This document shows positions 9,340-13,217 of a stretch of DNA of 64,000 nt, piece after piece. Source of the stretch: an uncultured Chloroflexia bacterium. Its GTDB lineage: Bacteria; Chloroflexota; Limnocylindria; Limnocylindrales; CSP1-4. How positions within the stretch are numbered: the first letter of the stretch is position 1; each line of letters begins with the position of its first letter. A program made the translations under genes and the position numbers. The notes under the pieces are model-generated. The model saw only the letters and a list, made by a program, of their open reading frames with translations, had not been told where the DNA came from and did no database searches. The stretch spans positions 128,001 to 192,000 of the forward strand of contig CAVXPZ010000004.1 of assembly GCA_963763775.1 (NCBI GenBank), in the 5' to 3' direction.

Positions 9340-9561
9340 GCGGCGGGCGACCCTCCTCGAGGTCCGAGGGTACCATCGGGAGGACCGTCCGGACCCGGTG
9401 CGCACCGCTCGGCACCGAACCTCACCGGATGACCCAACCCGTTGCAACGGGTCACCGGCAAAACGTCCCGGCGTCTTCCCGATTCAGTCCCTTCGCGGTC
9501 ACGCGGCCCTATAGTCGAAGGCCCTGGCCCGCATCATCTTCAGGAGTCATCAGCCCGGACC

Positions 9562-10311
9562 ATGGACCTGTCACAGGACACCCTTCTCGCCATCCTCGCC
9601 GCGGTGCTCATCGCGGACATCCTCGTCGTCGCCATCGCCCTCATCTGGACGCGATACCAGCAGCGCCGCGATCGGGCCGGTACGGCCATGCCGGTCGCGC
9701 CTGCGACGCCCCCTCGACCCATCACCGGAGCCACCCCGATGACCAGCCGTGCCTACCCGGCCGCGACCGCGATCAACGACCCCACGACCGATCCGCTGAC
9801 CGGTCTGCTCATGGCCGGGGCCTGGTCCCGGATCATCGTCGACGAGGAGGCCAGGATCCGGCGCTACCACCGGCCGGCGACCGTCGTCATCATCGAGATC
9901 GAGGGGCTGGACCGACTCGTCGCCCGCCTGGGTCCTGGCTCCGTCGACCGGATCGTGCCGGCCGTCGCCGACACGCTTCGGCGAGGGGCGCGCGAGGCGG
10001 ACCACGTCGCGCGGCTCGCCACGGGCCGGTTCGCGATCCTGATGCCCGAGACCGACGAGATCCTCGCGATCAACTACGTCGAGCGCGTCCGAAAGGCCTG
10101 CGACCTGTGGCTGGAGTCCGGCGCGGTGTCGCTGCGGCTGGCCATCGGCTGGGCGAGCTCCAGCGGTGACGGGTCGCTGGTCGACGCCGAGGCCCTGGCC
10201 ACGGACCGGATGTACGGCGAACTCCGTCGAGTTTCGCGTGGCAACAACCCCGACGCGAGCGGCGGCGCGGCTCCGACCAACGGCGGCATGGAGCCAGCGT
10301 TCGGCGGCTAA
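9562..10311 (+). CDS. Membrane-anchored degenerate GGDEF-domain protein
   Basis: N-terminal TM helix, then 'TDPLTGL' and GGDEF-fold elements, with the active-site loop reading 'ARLATGRF'; CAGGAG upstream. Confidence 0.8.
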   Translation: MDLSQDTLLAILAAVLIADILVVAIALIWTRYQQRRDRAGTAMPVAPATPPRPITGATPMTSRAYPAATAINDPTTDPLTGLLMAGAWSRIIVDEEARIRRYHRPATVVIIEIEGLDRLVARLGPGSVDRIVPAVADTLRRGAREADHVARLATGRFAILMPETDEILAINYVERVRKACDLWLESGAVSLRLAIGWASSSGDGSLVDAEALATDRMYGELRRVSRGNNPDASGGAAPTNGGMEPAFGG

Positions 10312-10336
10312 GGACAGCAGCGGGGGCCTCACCGCG

Positions 10337-10461
10337 CCGGGCCGCGGCAGGCCTCACCGGGCCGCGGCAGGCCTCACCGGGCCGCGCACGCCGCCACCGC
10401 GCCGGGCCGCGGCGCCGCGACCTCGCCGGGCCACGGCGCCGCCACCTCGCCGGGCCACTGT
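10337..10461. repeat. GC-rich minisatellites (2.5 x 20 bp, then 3 x 24 bp)
   Basis: CCGGGCCGCGGCAGGCCTCA at 10337 and 10357 (partial at 10377); GCCGCCACC(G/T)CGCCGGGCC(G/A)CGGC-like units at 10390, 10414 and 10438. Confidence 0.85.
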
Positions 10462-10573
10462 CAGTACCGGTTTCGTGAGATTCACGCTCAGACTGGTGCC
10501 AGACCGACATCAGATCGTCTGATTCGGCTGCAGTCCACGCTCGGCTGTCGCGAATCCGTCACCGTCAGTACCG
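10457..10573. repeat. Left 117-bp arm of degenerate inverted repeat flanking the nuclease gene
   Basis: GTAC at 10464 and 10568, central hairpin ATCAGA-TCG-TCTGAT; aligns with the reverse complement of 11495-11611. Confidence 0.65.
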
Positions 10574-10664
10574 TAGGCGGTCGCTCCGGGCGACTGGGCG
10601 GACGGGACCGACCTGCCGGATCGGGATAACCGACGGTGCAGCCTCGAGTGGTTGACTTCCGCCC

Positions 10665-11462
10665 ATGCTTCGGAAGTCCTTCGGCCAGGTGTGCTTCGAG
10701 ACCAGGGTCGCTCTCGACTTGAGTCAGACGCAGCTCGCCGCCCGGGCCGGCGTCACCCGAAGCTACATCGGACAGGTCGAGCGCGGCGACGCCAACATCA
10801 CGCTAGACCGGCTCGTGTCGGTCGCCAGCGCCCTCGGCATCGAGGTCGCGTTCGACCTTCGGCCGCCGACCATCATCGGGCGCCATCCGGGTCAGTCGGA
10901 CATCGTCCACGCCTGGTGCTCCGGCCATGCCGATCGGCGATTGCGCGCGGACGGCTGGTCGACGGCGCGGGAGGTCGAGGTCGTCCATGGTCGATCGCAC
11001 GGGTGGATCGACCTGCTCGCCTTCGATCATCGGACCGGCACGCTGCTGATCATCGAGATCAAGACGCGGCTGGACGATCTCGGCGCCGTCGAGCGGCAGA
11101 TCGCGTGGTATGAGCGAATGGCGTGGGGCCTCGCGCGCGATATCGGGTGGGAGCCCCGGCGGGTCGCGACATGGCTGCTCGTGCTTGCGAGCGACGAGGT
11201 CGATGCATCGTTGCGCATCAATCGGTCGGTCATCGATCGAGCGTTCCCGTCTCGCGCCGTTGAGATGACGGCCGCCCTCGCCGTGCCCGAGCGTCTCCGG
11301 CCTGGGGCTCGCGGGCTGGCGTTGATCGACCCCGCCGGGCACGGCCGGCGCTGGCTGATCCGCTCCCGTCTGGACGGGCGCCGAACGCCGGCGCGCTACG
11401 CGGACTACGCGGCGGCGGCCGCGAGAGTGTCGGGGCAGAAGACCGGGGCGCGACGTCGATGA
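10665..11462 (+). CDS. XRE-family HTH fused to a PD-(D/E)XK-type endonuclease domain
   Basis: 'LSQTQLAARAGVTRSYIGQVERG' (XRE HTH); 'REVEV...GWIDLLAF...LLIIEIKT...RQIAWY' (E...D...ExK...QxxxY nuclease motif). Confidence 0.85.
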   Translation: MLRKSFGQVCFETRVALDLSQTQLAARAGVTRSYIGQVERGDANITLDRLVSVASALGIEVAFDLRPPTIIGRHPGQSDIVHAWCSGHADRRLRADGWSTAREVEVVHGRSHGWIDLLAFDHRTGTLLIIEIKTRLDDLGAVERQIAWYERMAWGLARDIGWEPRRVATWLLVLASDEVDASLRINRSVIDRAFPSRAVEMTAALAVPERLRPGARGLALIDPAGHGRRWLIRSRLDGRRTPARYADYAAAAARVSGQKTGARRR

Positions 11463-11494
11463 TGATCGGCGTCGCCCCTGCGAGGGTCGGGGCT

Positions 11495-11611
11495 GGGTAC
11501 CCCTAGTTGCCGATCGCCGACAGACGCCTCGAGGTCACCCGCCGAATCGACAGGAATCTGTCGATCCCTGGTCTCAGCACGCTCGAATCTCGCGGTTCGG
11601 GTACTGGGAGT
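11495..11611. repeat. Right 117-bp arm of degenerate inverted repeat
   Basis: GTAC at 11497 and 11601, central perfect hairpin ATCGACAG-GAAT-CTGTCGAT (11546-11565). Confidence 0.65.
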
Positions 11612-11639
11612 TCCCTCGCATGTGAGCGAGGACGGACCG

Positions 11640-11722
11640 GCCCGTCGGGCGGTTACGGCCCCTCGGGCGGGACCAGCCCCGTCGGGCGGGACCAGCCCCG
11701 TCGGGCGCGGAACGGCCCCGTC
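11640..11722. repeat. GC-rich minisatellite (~4.5 x 18-20 bp)
   Basis: Units resembling GCCCCGTCGGGCGGGACCA at 11640, 11658, 11676, 11695 and 11715. Confidence 0.85.
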
Positions 11723-11777
11723 TCTGCCGGTCGGCAAGGACGAGGCCGAGGAGCGCAACCGCGGCGGCGACCGAGGG

Positions 11778-13217
11778 CTACCCCGCGTTGATCTCCGCCG
11801 GCACGAGCCCCTCCCCCTCGGGATGGGCCGGCGCCGCGCCGATGATCACCTCCCGGCGGGCTCGACCCGGCAGGGCCAGGGCCACCAAGGCTCCGACGCC
11901 GACGACCGCCGCCCCGACCCACACGGCCGGGACCAAGCCGTCCACGAACGCGGTCGGCGACACGTACGAGCCGTTGGACGAGAACACGCTGGCCAGGACG
12001 GCGACGCCGAACACGCCGCCGATCTCGCGGATCGTGTTCGTCGCCCCGGATGCCTGGCCCTCCTCGATCCGGTCGACCGACGAGAGCACGACGTTCGCGA
12101 TCGGGGCGAAGAACAGCCCCATCCCGATGCCCGCGAGCACGAACCCGGGGACGAGCACCGGATACGCCACGGTCGGCGTCGTCACGGCCGCGATCCAGGC
12201 GAGGCCGGCGGAGAGGGCCACCATGCCGGCCACGAGGATCGGCCGGCCGCCGATGCGCCCGGCGAGGACGCCGGCGAGCGGCGCCACGATCGCGGGCATC
12301 GCGGTCCACGGCAGGGTGCGCAGCCCCGACTGGAACGGGCTCAGGCCCTGGACGATCTGGAAGAACTGGACGAGGAGGAACACGGCGCCGAAGACGCCGA
12401 AGTACATGAGGAACGACACCACGTTGGCGGCCGTGAAGCCGCGGCTGCGGAAGAACCGGAGGGGAAGCATCGGCGACGCGGTCCGCGCCTCCCACGCGAG
12501 GAACAGCGCCATCAGCACCGCCCCGATCGCGAGCGCGGTGATGATCTGCGGGTCGGTCCAGCCAAGGTCGTTGCCGTGGATGACGCCCCACACGAGGGCG
12601 AACAGCCCGGCGCTCACGAGGCCGAGCCCGGGCAGGTCGAGGGCCCCGTCGGGACCGTAGGACTCGGTCAGCCGGAAGGTCGAGAGCACGATGGCGACGA
12701 TGCCGATCGGAACGTTGAGCCAGAAGATCCAGTGCCAGTTCACGCCTTCGGCGATGGCGCCGCCGACGAGCGGGCCGATCGCGATCGCCAGGCCGGCGAT
12801 ACCGCCCCACGCGCCGAGGGCGACCGCTCGTCGCTCGGGCGGGACCGCGCCCGACAGGATCGTCAGGCTCAACGGCGTCACGAACGCGCCGCCGACGCCC
12901 TGGATGGCGCGCGCGACGATGAGGAGATCGCTCGACGGCGCGAGCGCGGCCGCCGCGGAGCCCGCGGTGAAGATCACCAGGCCGAGGATGAACATCCGAC
13001 GACGACCGAACCGGTCGCCGAGGGCGGCGCCCGTCAGCAGCAGGACCGCGAAGGTCAGGGTGTAGGCGTTGACCATCCACTCGAGCGCCGACAGCGAGGC
13101 GCCCAGGTCGGCCTTGATGACGGGCAGGGCGGTCGTCACGACGAGGTTGTCGAGCGCGACCATGAACAGGGCGACGGAGGTGATGGCGAAGGTCCATCCG
13201 GTCCGAGACAACCGCAT
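11778..13217 (-). CDS. DHA2-family (EmrB/QacA) MFS efflux transporter
   Basis: 'FMVALDNLVV', 'WMVNAYTLTFA', 'LGDRFGRRR', 'WHWIFWLNVPIG'; about 14 TM helices. Confidence 0.93.
   Translation of the reverse strand: MRLSRTGWTFAITSVALFMVALDNLVVTTALPVIKADLGASLSALEWMVNAYTLTFAVLLLTGAALGDRFGRRRMFILGLVIFTAGSAAAALAPSSDLLIVARAIQGVGGAFVTPLSLTILSGAVPPERRAVALGAWGGIAGLAIAIGPLVGGAIAEGVNWHWIFWLNVPIGIVAIVLSTFRLTESYGPDGALDLPGLGLVSAGLFALVWGVIHGNDLGWTDPQIITALAIGAVLMALFLAWEARTASPMLPLRFFRSRGFTAANVVSFLMYFGVFGAVFLLVQFFQIVQGLSPFQSGLRTLPWTAMPAIVAPLAGVLAGRIGGRPILVAGMVALSAGLAWIAAVTTPTVAYPVLVPGFVLAGIGMGLFFAPIANVVLSSVDRIEEGQASGATNTIREIGGVFGVAVLASVFSSNGSYVSPTAFVDGLVPAVWVGAAVVGVGALVALALPGRARREVIIGAAPAHPEGEGLVPAEINAG

What the first reader, a model, noticed from the sequence alone, without database searches (positions are those of the whole stretch)
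10337..11722. Candidate transposase-less element: XRE-HTH/PD-(D/E)XK nuclease gene inside two 117-bp degenerate inverted arms with fixed GTAC-to-GTAC spacing
Seen: 10457-10573 and the reverse complement of 11495-11611 are the same length (117 bp). They share blocks at the same or nearly the same offsets: ACTnnCAGTACC, GAGATTC, GAnCGACA, GATTCGGC, CTGTCGnnnATC and GTACC. Each arm has two GTAC tetramers exactly 104 bp apart (10464/10568 and 11497/11601) and a central hairpin of different sequence (ATCAGA/TCTGAT versus ATCGACAG/CTGTCGAT). This suggests geometry and structure are conserved more than sequence. The only gene between the arms encodes an XRE HTH fused to an E..D..ExK..QxxxY nuclease, with no DDE, HUH or recombinase. 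The unit is one of several unrelated genes splitting a purine catabolism cluster. Inference: a REP/RAYT-like or homing-type selfish element, or a nucleoprotein site, in which the HTH recognises the arms and the nuclease cuts at GTAC.
Basis: partly seen in the sequence, partly recalled or inferred. Interest (0 to 1): 0.85.

Follow-up and report, generated by a model that had tools for sequence, protein, structure and literature searches.

The report
Nuclease gene bracketed by dispersed palindromic repeats
A small inserted DNA module, one DNA-binding nuclease gene flanked by two copies of a 119-bp near-palindromic repeat that is also scattered through the genome, looks like a previously undescribed kind of selfish element in soil and freshwater Chloroflexota.

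Summary
The two arms (window 10454-10572 and 11496-11614) match far above chance, and each has terminal motifs 104 bp apart.

The arms are not private to this gene. They are 2 of 17 copies of a ~119-bp near-palindromic intergenic repeat in this 3.3-Mb genome. By the family profile both arms lie in the same orientation.

The gene encodes a controller-protein-like XRE HTH fused to a PD-(D/E)XK-fold nuclease. Its catalytic residues are invariant in 36 of 36 aligned homologues.

The arm-gene-arm layout recurs. At least one flanking arm was found at 54 of 80 homologue loci from Limnocylindrales-type Chloroflexota genomes, and both arms at 25.

Four congeners have the GGDEF and MFS genes adjacent with no unit between them. 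One congener assembly holds both an occupied and an empty allele, where 1196 bp replace 7 bp. Another congener has a 60-bp flanking duplication.

GTAC is not special. It is this lineage's version of a variable triplet in a 15-nt terminal repeat, G-NNN-CTG-N-CAG-NNN-C, and that triplet tracks the HTH recognition helix.

Best reading: a selfish module resembling REP/RAYT or MITE systems, but built on a different enzyme class. Its mobilisation mechanism is inferred, not shown.

The parts
10312..11777 (.). Whole GGDEF-MFS intergenic segment. This is the largest possible extent of the inserted module.
   Evidence: In G017, G047, G020 and G065 the orthologous GGDEF and MFS genes are convergent neighbours. 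About 65-280 bp lie between them, with no arm and no gene; three of the four carry one hairpin there.
10325..10456 (.). GC-rich tandem repeats (periods 20 and 24 bp) abutting and running into the outer edge of the left arm.
   Evidence: Tandem repeat and direct repeat finders. Comparable GC-rich tandem repeats lie outside the arms in G001, G004, G008 and G016.
10454..10572 (+). Left arm, a 119-bp copy of the dispersed near-palindromic repeat. Terminal modules lie at 10454-10468 (GCCACTGTCAGTACC) and 10558-10572 (GTCACCGTCAGTACC). The central hairpin is ATCAGA-TCG-TCTGAT. GC content is about 58%, against 72% for the window.
   Evidence: 84.9 bits on + versus 45.3 on -; R1 score 86.4 bits.
10573..10664 (+). 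Spacer between the left arm and the start codon. It presumably holds the promoter and leader; this was not analysed further.
   Evidence: At homologue loci the upstream arm ends 50-140 bp before the start codon in most cases, with outliers up to 230 bp.
10665..11462 (+). Gene for a 265-aa protein. The N-terminal part is an XRE/controller-protein-like HTH (residues ~5-62). The C-terminal part is a PD-(D/E)XK-fold nuclease domain (~76-265) with E103, E105, D116, E131, K133 and the ERQxxWY motif.
   Evidence: Pfam; PADLOC Control_protein E 2.5e-11; alignment A3 invariant residues in 36 of 36 sequences; AlphaFold pLDDT 91 and 94; Foldseek.
11496..11614 (+). Right arm, a 119-bp copy of the same repeat. 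Terminal modules lie at 11496-11510 (GGTACCCCTAGTTGC) and 11600-11614 (GGTACTGGGAGTTCC). The central hairpin is ATCGACAG-GAAT-CTGTCGAT.
   Evidence: 94.8 bits on + versus 40.1 on -; R1 score 93.7 bits.
11633..11722 (.). GC-rich tandem repeat (period 19 bp, about 4.3 copies) outside the right arm.
9442..10311 (+). Flanking GGDEF-domain gene. It is not part of the module.
   Evidence: Pfam GGDEF E 2.4e-10.
11778..13217 (-). Flanking MFS transporter gene. It is not part of the module.
   Evidence: Pfam MFS_1 E 2.1e-64.

Best explanation
The segment is an insertion of a small selfish DNA module that is widespread in Limnocylindrales-type Chloroflexota.

The module has one gene. Its product joins a restriction-modification-controller-like XRE HTH to a restriction-endonuclease-fold (PD-(D/E)XK) nuclease. 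Two copies of a ~119-bp near-palindromic element, less GC-rich than its surroundings, bracket the gene.

Each element ends in 15-nt terminal inverted repeats of the form G-NNN-CTG-N-CAG-NNN-C, set 104-105 bp apart. It also holds conserved inner boxes (CCTCGTGG and CCACGCTCGG, which pair around an asymmetric internal loop) and a central CGAC...GTCG hairpin. The same element occurs as 15 further solo copies in this genome, so it resembles a MITE or REP sequence.

Shown:
- the anatomy of the module;
- the dispersal of the arms;
- the recurrent arm-gene-arm layout in many genomes and in at least 7 genomic contexts;
- empty sites in relatives;
- insertion junctions without a short target duplication.

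Inferred:
- an HTH dimer binds the terminal modules, with their lineage-specific triplets matched by the recognition helix;
- the nuclease domain nicks or cuts at or beside them;
- the module, and in trans the solo arms, spread by break-and-repair insertion into intergenic DNA at gene 3' ends;
- this leaves variable junctions, from replacement of a few bases to a 60-bp duplication, together with GC-rich tandem filler.
For: 1. Dispersed family. 17 full-length copies, converged on iteration. Module spacing is 103-106 bp in all 17. The 15-nt motif with at most 1 mismatch occurs only inside copies, 7 of 7 occurrences.

2. Association with the gene.
- With the profile trained on this genome, 43 of 48 non-overlapping hits in 80 loci (each 2.5 kb either side of the gene) lie within 400 bp of the gene.
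- With the iterated profile, 42 loci have an upstream arm, 36 a downstream arm, 25 both, and 54 at least one. Only 7 hits lie elsewhere.
- Flank-to-flank similarity reaches z>=5 at 28 of 71 loci, against 1 of 62 displaced controls.
- Among 24 congeners, 10 of the 11 with repeat hits have a close homologue, against 3 of the 13 without hits.

3. Gain and loss.
- The GGDEF-MFS site is empty in G017, G047, G020 and G065.
- The solo copy at C1:1182183 is absent at the orthologous site in G065 and G017.
- G001 holds both alleles with flanks 98-99% identical, and 1196 bp replace 7 bp.
- G015 has a 60-bp perfect flanking direct repeat.
- The 14 congener loci fall into at least 7 contexts.
- Frameshifted or truncated copies occur in G024 and at L107, L148, L158 and L162.

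4. The protein is probably active.
- E103, E105, D116, E131, K133, Q145-region and Y149 are invariant or nearly so in 36 sequences.
- The C-terminal domain model has pLDDT 94. Its best Foldseek matches are R2 restriction-like endonuclease domains (E 1.5e-4), AF1548, Hjc, XisH and cap-snatching nucleases.
- The HTH is closest to C.AhdI (48% identity over 56 columns) and HipB.
- A homodimer through the HTH is predicted with ipSAE 0.71, against a best control of 0.00 among 3. That mark was reached by 20 of 30 proteins solved as same-chain pairs and by 1 of 23 solved as single chains. The runs agree in at least 96% of contacts and partner pLDDT is at least 86. My own alignment was used. The model resembles solved XRE dimers, so the pass may come from memory.

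5. Specificity.
- Inner triplets of the modules are specific to a genome or lineage. They are shared by gene-flanking and solo arms.
- They sort with recognition-helix variants.
Against: - There is no biochemical or expression evidence.
- Copies in this genome are old. Mean pairwise identity is 57%, with one pair at 85%. Nothing shows recent movement here.
- All 17 copies keep full length and the boxes, and no fragments were found at E<0.01. This fits selection on each copy for a host function at least as well as a decaying mobile family.
- Arm orientation relative to the gene, and between the two arms, varies.
- No terminal inverted repeats or short target duplication lie at the true insertion ends, and 32-80 bp of other sequence lie outside the arms. 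The arms may therefore not be the transposition ends.
- The link between helix and triplet, and the gene-repeat co-occurrence, are confounded by shared descent.
- The R1 and HMM models are biased towards this genome's arm type.
- 26 of 80 loci showed no arm with the models used.
- The genome is 87% complete, so an unlinked transposase cannot be excluded.
Confidence: 0.55

Rival explanations
1. Solo arms are relics, like solo LTRs. Only the whole arm-gene-arm unit ever inserts. Solo arms arise when the two flanking direct copies recombine and delete the gene. The protein does not mobilise arms in trans.
For: Most arm pairs are direct: 18 of 25 two-arm loci, and this genome by profile. This is the geometry that gives deletion. 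Some pairs are nearly identical over more than 100 bp (L103 score 153, L107 117.5). Solo and gene-flanking arms share lineage-specific triplets.
Against: There are 15 solos to 1 unit here. The solos are all full length with conserved boxes, not decaying. 6 of 25 pairs are inverted, which would invert rather than delete. The model does not explain how the unit itself inserts.
Confidence: 0.2
2. Homing or insertion with long target duplication. The nuclease breaks a solo arm or a nearby hairpin. Repair from an arm-gene-arm donor copies the gene in and duplicates the arm. This would resemble free-standing homing endonuclease genes and the mobile restriction-modification units described by Furuta et al. 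2010.
For: A 60-bp perfect duplication of the target flanks the unit in G015. Junctions vary and lack a short duplication. The HTH is controller-protein-like and the nuclease has the restriction-endonuclease fold. [quoted passage not shown] Arms are mostly direct.
Against: The empty GGDEF-MFS sites and the empty G001 allele hold no arm, so both arms came in with the gene. Arms in this genome are 42-85% identical, too diverged to act as recombination substrates now.
Confidence: 0.12
3. Host regulator with a regulon. The protein is an XRE transcription factor or nucleoid protein. The arms are its operators or architectural sites, with two dimer sites ten helical turns apart for looping. The nuclease-like domain serves for sensing or oligomerisation.
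For: The modules look like operators for an HTH dimer. The 104-105 bp spacing is conserved. Every copy is conserved and intergenic, several of them just upstream of ECF sigma genes. Autoregulation by flanking sites is plausible.
Against: Catalytic residues are invariant. Copy number ranges from 0 to 12 matches per congener, with frameshifted copies. The gene sits at non-orthologous positions and empty sites exist. A 119-bp element with a conserved interior is much more than an operator. In lineages with non-palindromic modules the two ends are inverted repeats of each other rather than dimer sites.
Confidence: 0.08
4. Passenger gene between two MITEs. The arms are non-autonomous elements moved by an unlinked transposase, and the nuclease gene is merely trapped between two copies.
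For: The arms have the MITE features of about 120 bp length, terminal inverted repeats, an AT-richer sequence and intergenic position. Other arm pairs in this genome flank unrelated genes (C3:822403/824615 and 828751/830858). The genome is 87% complete.
Against: The association is specific to this gene family across 54 of 80 loci, and its position is fixed: the upstream arm ends 50-140 bp before the start in most loci, and the downstream arm begins between 17 bp before and 70 bp after the stop in most loci, sometimes overlapping it. The terminal triplets track the protein's recognition helix. No other sequence in the genome carries the terminal motif with at most 1 mismatch.
Confidence: 0.05

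Closest known systems
REP/REPIN-RAYT systems (REPtrons; TnpA-REP with repetitive extragenic palindromes)
   Same: One dedicated gene is flanked by copies of a palindromic repeat that is also dispersed in intergenic DNA of the same genome. The repeat type is lineage-specific. (Features of REPtrons taken from the abstracts listed and from recall.)
   Different: The enzyme is an XRE HTH plus PD-(D/E)XK nuclease, not an HUH/Y1 transposase. The repeats are about 119 bp with 15-nt terminal inverted repeats and inner boxes, not 20-40-bp REPs with a GTAG/CGTC tag. Copy number is low (17). The gene is often multi-copy and sometimes broken.
MITEs and long palindromic intergenic repeats (ERIC/IRU about 127 bp, Correia elements); comparison from recall
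   Same: The arms are 100-150-bp imperfect palindromes with terminal inverted repeats. They are intergenic, often at gene 3' ends, and can fold into one long hairpin.
   Different: No short target duplication was seen. A specific non-transposase-type gene is consistently bracketed by two whole copies. No parent insertion sequence with matching ends was found.
Mobile restriction-modification units inserted with long target duplication (Furuta et al. 2010, PMC2853133; passages read)
   Same: A restriction-endonuclease-fold gene with a controller-protein-like HTH sits at sites with no integrase or transposase. It is flanked by direct repeats. One case has a 60-bp target duplication.
   Different: The unit holds no methyltransferase. 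The flanking repeats are a dispersed structured family rather than a duplicated unique target. The empty sites examined hold no copy of the repeat.
Free-standing and PD-(D/E)XK-type homing endonucleases (for example I-Ssp6803I), and the restriction-like endonuclease domain of R2 retrotransposons
   Same: A PD-(D/E)XK nuclease serves a selfish element. The best structural matches of the C-terminal domain are R2 restriction-like endonuclease domains.
   Different: There is no intron, intein or reverse transcriptase. Similarity is at the fold level only (10-17% identity, TM about 0.4). The target site is unknown.

Membership tests
REP/RAYT (REPtron) | Gene encodes an HUH/Y1 (IS200/IS605-like) TnpA-REP | tested here: not met
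   Pfam and NCBIfam give only HTH families and weak PD-(D/E)XK families. The fold is PD-(D/E)XK.
REP/RAYT (REPtron) | Short (20-40 bp) palindromes with a conserved 5' tetranucleotide (GTAG/CGTC) | tested here: not met
   The repeat is about 119 bp. Its ends are G-NNN-CTG-N-CAG-NNN-C.
REP/RAYT (REPtron) | Gene flanked by the repeats, with further copies dispersed in the genome | tested here: met
   2 flanking and 15 solo copies. Flanking arms at 54 of 80 homologue loci.
MITE / IS-derived miniature element | Terminal inverted repeats | tested here: met
   In 90 arms, the inner triplets of the two ends match in 63 and the outer triplets in 50. Helix 1 is 81% paired.
MITE / IS-derived miniature element | Short target-site duplication at insertion | tested here: not met
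   In the occupied/empty pair in G001, 1196 bp replace 7 bp with no duplication. G015 has a 60-bp duplication. For the solo copy C1:1182183 the junctions could not be resolved.
MITE / IS-derived miniature element | Parent element: a transposase gene bounded by the same terminal repeats | tested here: not met
   No occurrence of the terminal motif with at most 1 mismatch lies outside the 17 copies. The 7 hits with 2 mismatches are unpaired. The genome is 87% complete.
XRE-family HTH / restriction-modification controller (C) proteins | HTH_3-type domain similar to C proteins | tested here: met
   HTH_3 E 8e-14. PADLOC Control_protein E 2.5e-11. C.AhdI 48% identity over 56 columns, rmsd 0.9.
XRE-family HTH / restriction-modification controller (C) proteins | Stand-alone small protein beside restriction and methyltransferase genes | tested here: not met
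   The HTH is fused to the nuclease domain. The unit has no other gene, and its neighbours are GGDEF and MFS genes.
PD-(D/E)XK nuclease superfamily | alpha-beta-beta-beta-alpha-beta core with D...(D/E)xK catalytic residues | tested here: met
   D116, E131 and K133 are invariant in 36 of 36 sequences. Model pLDDT is 94. Foldseek matches PD-(D/E)XK nucleases, best E 1.5e-4. Pfam sequence hits fall below the curated cut-offs.
Type II restriction endonuclease | Cognate methyltransferase and avoidance or protection of the recognition site | tested here: inconclusive
   There is no methyltransferase in the unit. GTAC observed/expected is 0.90 and GGTACC 1.01. Methyltransferases elsewhere in the genome were not searched.
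Homing endonuclease gene | Cleaves the empty allele and is copied in by repair | not testable with these tools
   Empty and occupied alleles exist. Cleavage needs an assay.
Rfam RNA families | Match to a curated covariance model | tested here: not met
   No match at E<=1 in window 9800-12300.

The most novel reading that the evidence does not exclude
The XRE-HTH/PD-(D/E)XK protein is the sole enzyme of a new class of prokaryotic mobile element. A restriction-endonuclease-fold 'transposase' recognises 15-nt terminal repeats on 119-bp hairpin elements through a fast-evolving HTH. It mobilises both its own arm-gene-arm unit and solo arms in trans. Insertion goes by nick- or break-and-repair at gene 3' ends, with long or absent target duplication. 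This would be a REP/RAYT analogue that arose independently from a restriction-modification controller-nuclease fusion.
Probability: 0.3. Interest if true: 0.85.

Novelty: new variant of a known kind. Interest (0 to 1): 0.72.

Why it matters
Dispersed palindromic repeats such as REP, ERIC and Correia elements are common in bacteria. A dedicated mobilising gene is known only for the REP/RAYT kind.

Here a different enzyme class is tied to a long structured repeat across many genomes of an abundant, uncultured soil and freshwater lineage. If the nuclease moves the arms, this adds a new transposition or homing chemistry to the prokaryotic repertoire. It would also supply a compact sequence-specific DNA-binding nuclease whose specificity appears to have been re-tuned repeatedly: GTA, TTC, CGC, CAT and TCA half-site types each go with matching recognition helices.

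The case also offers a concrete model for how genes related to restriction-modification systems become mobile. It may explain why this gene is so often assembled on 1-2-kb contigs.

Tried and rejected
- **Rfam.** No family matched at E<=1 over window 9800-12300.
- **RNA evidence.** No RNA holder was listed for the unit, and the DNA holders had only small word shares. I did not lay reads.
- **Fold libraries.** The pdb_via_wide and pdb_via libraries were not on the machine. I folded the C-terminal domain alone and used Foldseek against PDB instead.
- **Sequence search of solved structures.** phmmer of the C-terminal domain against PDB sequences found nothing at E<=10.
- **Earlier scan notes.** There were none for this genome.
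- **Literature.** Four searches found no description of this system: Limnocylindria + repeat; REPtron/RAYT; restriction endonuclease-like + HTH + palindromic repeats; long target duplication. Supplementary files were not consulted.
- **L059 flank similarity.** The z of 51-58 came from masked N runs, so I dropped it. For the same reason I excluded 9 of the 80 loci from the flank test as too short or N-bearing.
- **GTAC as a cleavage or avoidance site.** Rejected: observed/expected is 0.90.
- **Purely structural (RNA-like) conservation.** Rejected. 80% of cells pair, but shuffles that keep column composition give 77%. 18 pairs show double changes, against 12.2 +/- 1.9 in shuffles. RNAalifold keeps only the 8-bp terminal stem. 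Single-copy fold z-scores range from -0.01 to -5.96.
- **Outer half-sites as target-derived.** I considered that an element inserts at the centre of a palindromic target. In 27 arms whose 5' outer triplet differs from the inner one, 15 have matching outer triplets, against 4.3 expected. Most of these belong to one lineage with a fixed non-palindromic module. The 17 copies here show a gradient rather than a clean inner/outer split. I leave this as an idea only.
- **Tandem repeats near arms.** 7 of 17 copies have one within 200 bp, against roughly 3.6 expected from the genome-wide density. This is suggestive at most.
Full report
**Observation**

GTAC lies at 10464 and 10568 in the left arm and at 11497 and 11601 in the right, 104 bp apart in both. 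The central hairpins are ATCAGA/TCTGAT and ATCGACAG/CTGTCGAT.

20000 composition-matched shuffles gave 30.3 +/- 4.7, and none reached 56. The arms have 58-62% GC in a 72% GC window. Rfam has no match at E<=1.

**The arms belong to a dispersed family**

BLAST and iterated nhmmer against the window's own genome (3.3 Mb, 4 contigs, 87% complete) converge on 17 full-length copies. 16 of the 17 loci hit on both strands, so each copy is itself a near-palindrome.

Two inner boxes break the symmetry: CCTCGTGG(A/T)C on one side and CCACGCTCGG on the other. Orienting all copies by these boxes sharpens the profile. Every copy then scores 40-80 bits better on one strand.

Both window arms score best on the + strand: 84.9 versus 45.3 bits and 94.8 versus 40.1 bits. 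By the family profile they are therefore direct copies. In a bare pairwise comparison the inverted alignment is still slightly better (z 6.9 versus 4.1), because the left arm's first box is aberrant.

The refined arms are 10454-10572 and 11496-11614, 119 bp each. Each ends in a 15-nt module with consensus GGTACTGNCAGTACC. Module-to-module spacing is 103-106 bp in all 17 copies.

Mean pairwise identity is 57% (range 42-85%), yet length varies by only a few bases. The 15-nt motif with at most 1 mismatch occurs only in the copies, 7 of 7 occurrences. GTAC itself is ordinary, with 7580 sites and observed/expected 0.90.

A long-hairpin structure pairs 80% of cells. Shuffles that keep column composition already give 77%. 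18 pairs show double changes, against 12.2 +/- 1.9 in shuffles. The dyad is real, but it is mostly conserved palindromic sequence with modest covariation.

Copies are intergenic, often 24-70 bp from a gene end. Four of them separate tandem ECF-sigma/PD40 operons on contig C3.

**The protein**

The 265-aa product matches HTH_3 (E 8e-14), with sub-threshold NucS_C, MmcB and PDDEXK_10 hits. In PADLOC its HTH matches restriction-modification control proteins (E 2.5e-11).

More than 860 homologues exist. All those named or placed are Chloroflexota, and one is labelled Candidatus Limnocylindrales. Many sit on 1-2-kb contigs. The protein-atlas neighbours of the C-terminal domain are unnamed Chloroflexota clusters.

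In 36 aligned sequences E103, E105, D116, E131, K133, E143, R144, W148 and Y149 are invariant, and Q145 nearly so.

AlphaFold models are confident, with pLDDT 91 for the whole protein and 94 for the C-terminal domain. The HTH is closest to C.AhdI (48% identity over 56 columns), C.BclI and HipB.

The C-terminal domain matches PD-(D/E)XK nucleases: R2 retrotransposon restriction-like endonuclease domains (E 1.5e-4), AF1548, Hjc, XisH, cap-snatching endonucleases, and Can2, Card1 and AddAB nuclease domains.

A homodimer through the HTH is predicted with ipSAE 0.71, against a best control of 0.00 among 3. That mark was reached by 20 of 30 proteins solved as same-chain pairs and by 1 of 23 solved as single chains. 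Runs agree in at least 96% of contacts and pLDDT is at least 86. My own alignment was used. The model resembles solved XRE dimers, so the pass may reflect memory.

**The arm-gene-arm layout recurs**

Among 24 congeners, a covariance model of the arms (R1) finds the repeat in 11. It finds none in 16 small genomes of a sister family.

Close homologues of the protein occur in 13 of the 24 congeners. 10 of the 11 repeat-bearing genomes have one, against 3 of the 13 without repeat hits. These genomes are related to one another, and the model is biased to this genome's arm type.

Scanning 14 congener loci with filters off puts the hits directly upstream and downstream of the gene.

In 80 loci from public genomes, all Chloroflexota MAGs by title apart from one labelled Acidimicrobiales and one Sulfomarinibacteraceae, the profile trained on this genome places 43 of 48 non-overlapping hits within 400 bp of the gene.

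An iterated profile finds an upstream arm in 42 loci, a downstream arm in 36, both in 25 and at least one in 54. Only 7 hits lie elsewhere in the 2.5-kb flanks, and 3 of these follow truncated genes.

An independent test compared the 350 bp upstream with the 350 bp downstream of each gene. It gives z>=5 at 28 of 71 testable loci, against 1 of 62 for segments displaced by 1.2 kb.

Upstream arms end 50-140 bp before the start codon in most loci, with outliers up to 230 bp. Most downstream arms begin between 17 bp before and 70 bp after the stop codon, and a minority lie up to about 330 bp further out. Among the 25 two-arm loci, 18 pairs are direct, 6 inverted and 1 ambiguous.

**Terminal modules and specificity**

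Across the family the module is G-NNN-CT-NNN-AG-NNN-C. The triplets differ by lineage: GTA here, and TTC, CGC, CGT, CAT, GTC, TCA/TGT and GAA elsewhere.

In 90 arms the inner triplets of the two ends match in 63 and the outer triplets in 50. Local palindromy holds in only 43 (5' module) and 33 (3' module). The general rule is therefore 15-nt terminal inverted repeats, which are palindromic only in some lineages.

Within a genome the inner triplet is shared by gene-flanking and solo arms. Triplet type sorts with variants of the HTH recognition helix, for example TRSYI(G/A)x(V/I)ERGD with GTA, RGYIAM(V/I)EGG with CAT, and SR(A/P)xI(A/S)(A/T)IE with TCA/TGT. This is what recognition by the HTH would predict, but shared descent can produce the same pattern.

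**Gain, loss and junctions**

In G017, G047, G020 and G065 the GGDEF and MFS orthologues are convergent neighbours 65-280 bp apart, with no arm and no gene between them. Three of the four carry a terminator-like hairpin there.

The solo copy at C1:1182183 is missing from the orthologous spacer of G065 and G017.

The 14 congener loci fall into at least 7 genomic contexts.

One intergenic site is occupied in G001, G004, G008, G016, G056 and G065. It is empty in G000, G015, G017 and G060.

The G001 assembly holds both alleles with flanks 98-99% identical. 1196 bp replace 7 bp directly after a stop codon. There is no target duplication and no inverted repeat at the true ends. About 80 bp of other sequence lie outside one arm and 32 bp outside the other.

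In G015 the unit lies between 60-bp perfect direct repeats that include the 3' end of the neighbouring gene.

GC-rich tandem repeats lie outside the arms in G000, G001, G004, G008 and G016.

Frameshifted or truncated genes occur in G024 and at L107, L148, L158 and L162.

**Interpretation**

The data establish a conserved, gained-and-lost three-part module whose arms also exist as solo copies. The most economical reading is a selfish module in which the arms are the cis sites of the encoded HTH-nuclease. It works like REP/RAYT or insertion sequence/MITE pairs, but it fails the membership tests for both: it has no HUH or DDE enzyme, no short target duplication, and long structured repeats.

The controller-like HTH, the restriction-endonuclease fold, and the variable junctions (including a 60-bp duplication) recall the insertion of restriction-modification units with long target duplication (PMC2853133, passages read).

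Binding, cutting and trans-mobilisation are inferred.

Three facts argue for caution. The copies in this genome are old, yet every one of them is conserved. The arms are not at the very ends of the inserted DNA. Arm orientation varies.

The rivals are solo-LTR-like relics, homing into arms, a host regulon, and a passenger gene between MITEs. They are scored in their own section.

**Novelty**

Four literature searches found no description of this system. Supplementary files were not consulted. I rate it a new variant of a known kind, namely a dispersed palindromic repeat with a dedicated gene. There is a substantial chance that the enzyme chemistry makes it a new class of mobile element.

Noticed in passing
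window 10325-10456 and 11633-11722; also L058 1279-1358, and the L057, L062 and L065 flanks: GC-rich tandem repeats of 19-27-bp units lie just outside the arms in five genomes. In G000 and G004 they incorporate the outermost bases of the arm. In G000, 7 of 17 copies have a tandem repeat within 200 bp, against about 3.6 expected. These may be repair or slippage scars.
   Followed up: partly
G000 contig C3:819000-834500 (L012): This is a tandem array of ECF-sigma genes, each followed by a PD40-repeat or unassigned large ORF, with units separated by four copies of the arm. Several ORFs overlap in different frames (for example 822651-823319 and 823162-823947), which suggests frameshifts or assembly errors.
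   Followed up: partly
G000 C4:82909-83679 and C3:341174-341692: Distant paralogues of the gene are present. One is a 256-aa HTH plus nuclease protein (27% identity) and one has the nuclease part only. Such paralogues (27-37% identity) occur in 20 of 24 congeners at E<=1e-5. I did not check whether they have flanking repeats of their own.
   Followed up: no
G001 C8:33175-36930 versus C1:420349-422916 (L058, L163): One assembly holds both the occupied and the empty allele of the same locus, with flanks 98-99% identical. The bin therefore merges strains that differ by this insertion.
   Followed up: yes
L063 (G015), oriented coordinates 1152-1211 and 2523-2582: A 60-bp perfect direct repeat flanks the whole unit. 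It includes the stop codon region of the neighbouring gene and a GAGCCTG...CAGGCTC hairpin.
   Followed up: partly
G000 C1:1182340-1182400 and the orthologous spacers in G065 and G017 (L079, L082): A conserved TTGAC promoter-like box is followed by an ATATATCGC...GCGATATAT-type palindrome upstream of the gene at C1:1182381. It looks like an operator unrelated to the arms.
   Followed up: no
whole genome G000: CTAG is strongly under-represented (843 sites, observed/expected 0.36 under a Markov model). GTAC and GGTACC are not.
   Followed up: no
protein database hits P0002-P0120: A large share of homologues sit on contigs of only about 1-2 kb, close to the size of one arm-gene-arm unit. This is as expected if the arms break assemblies.
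   Followed up: no
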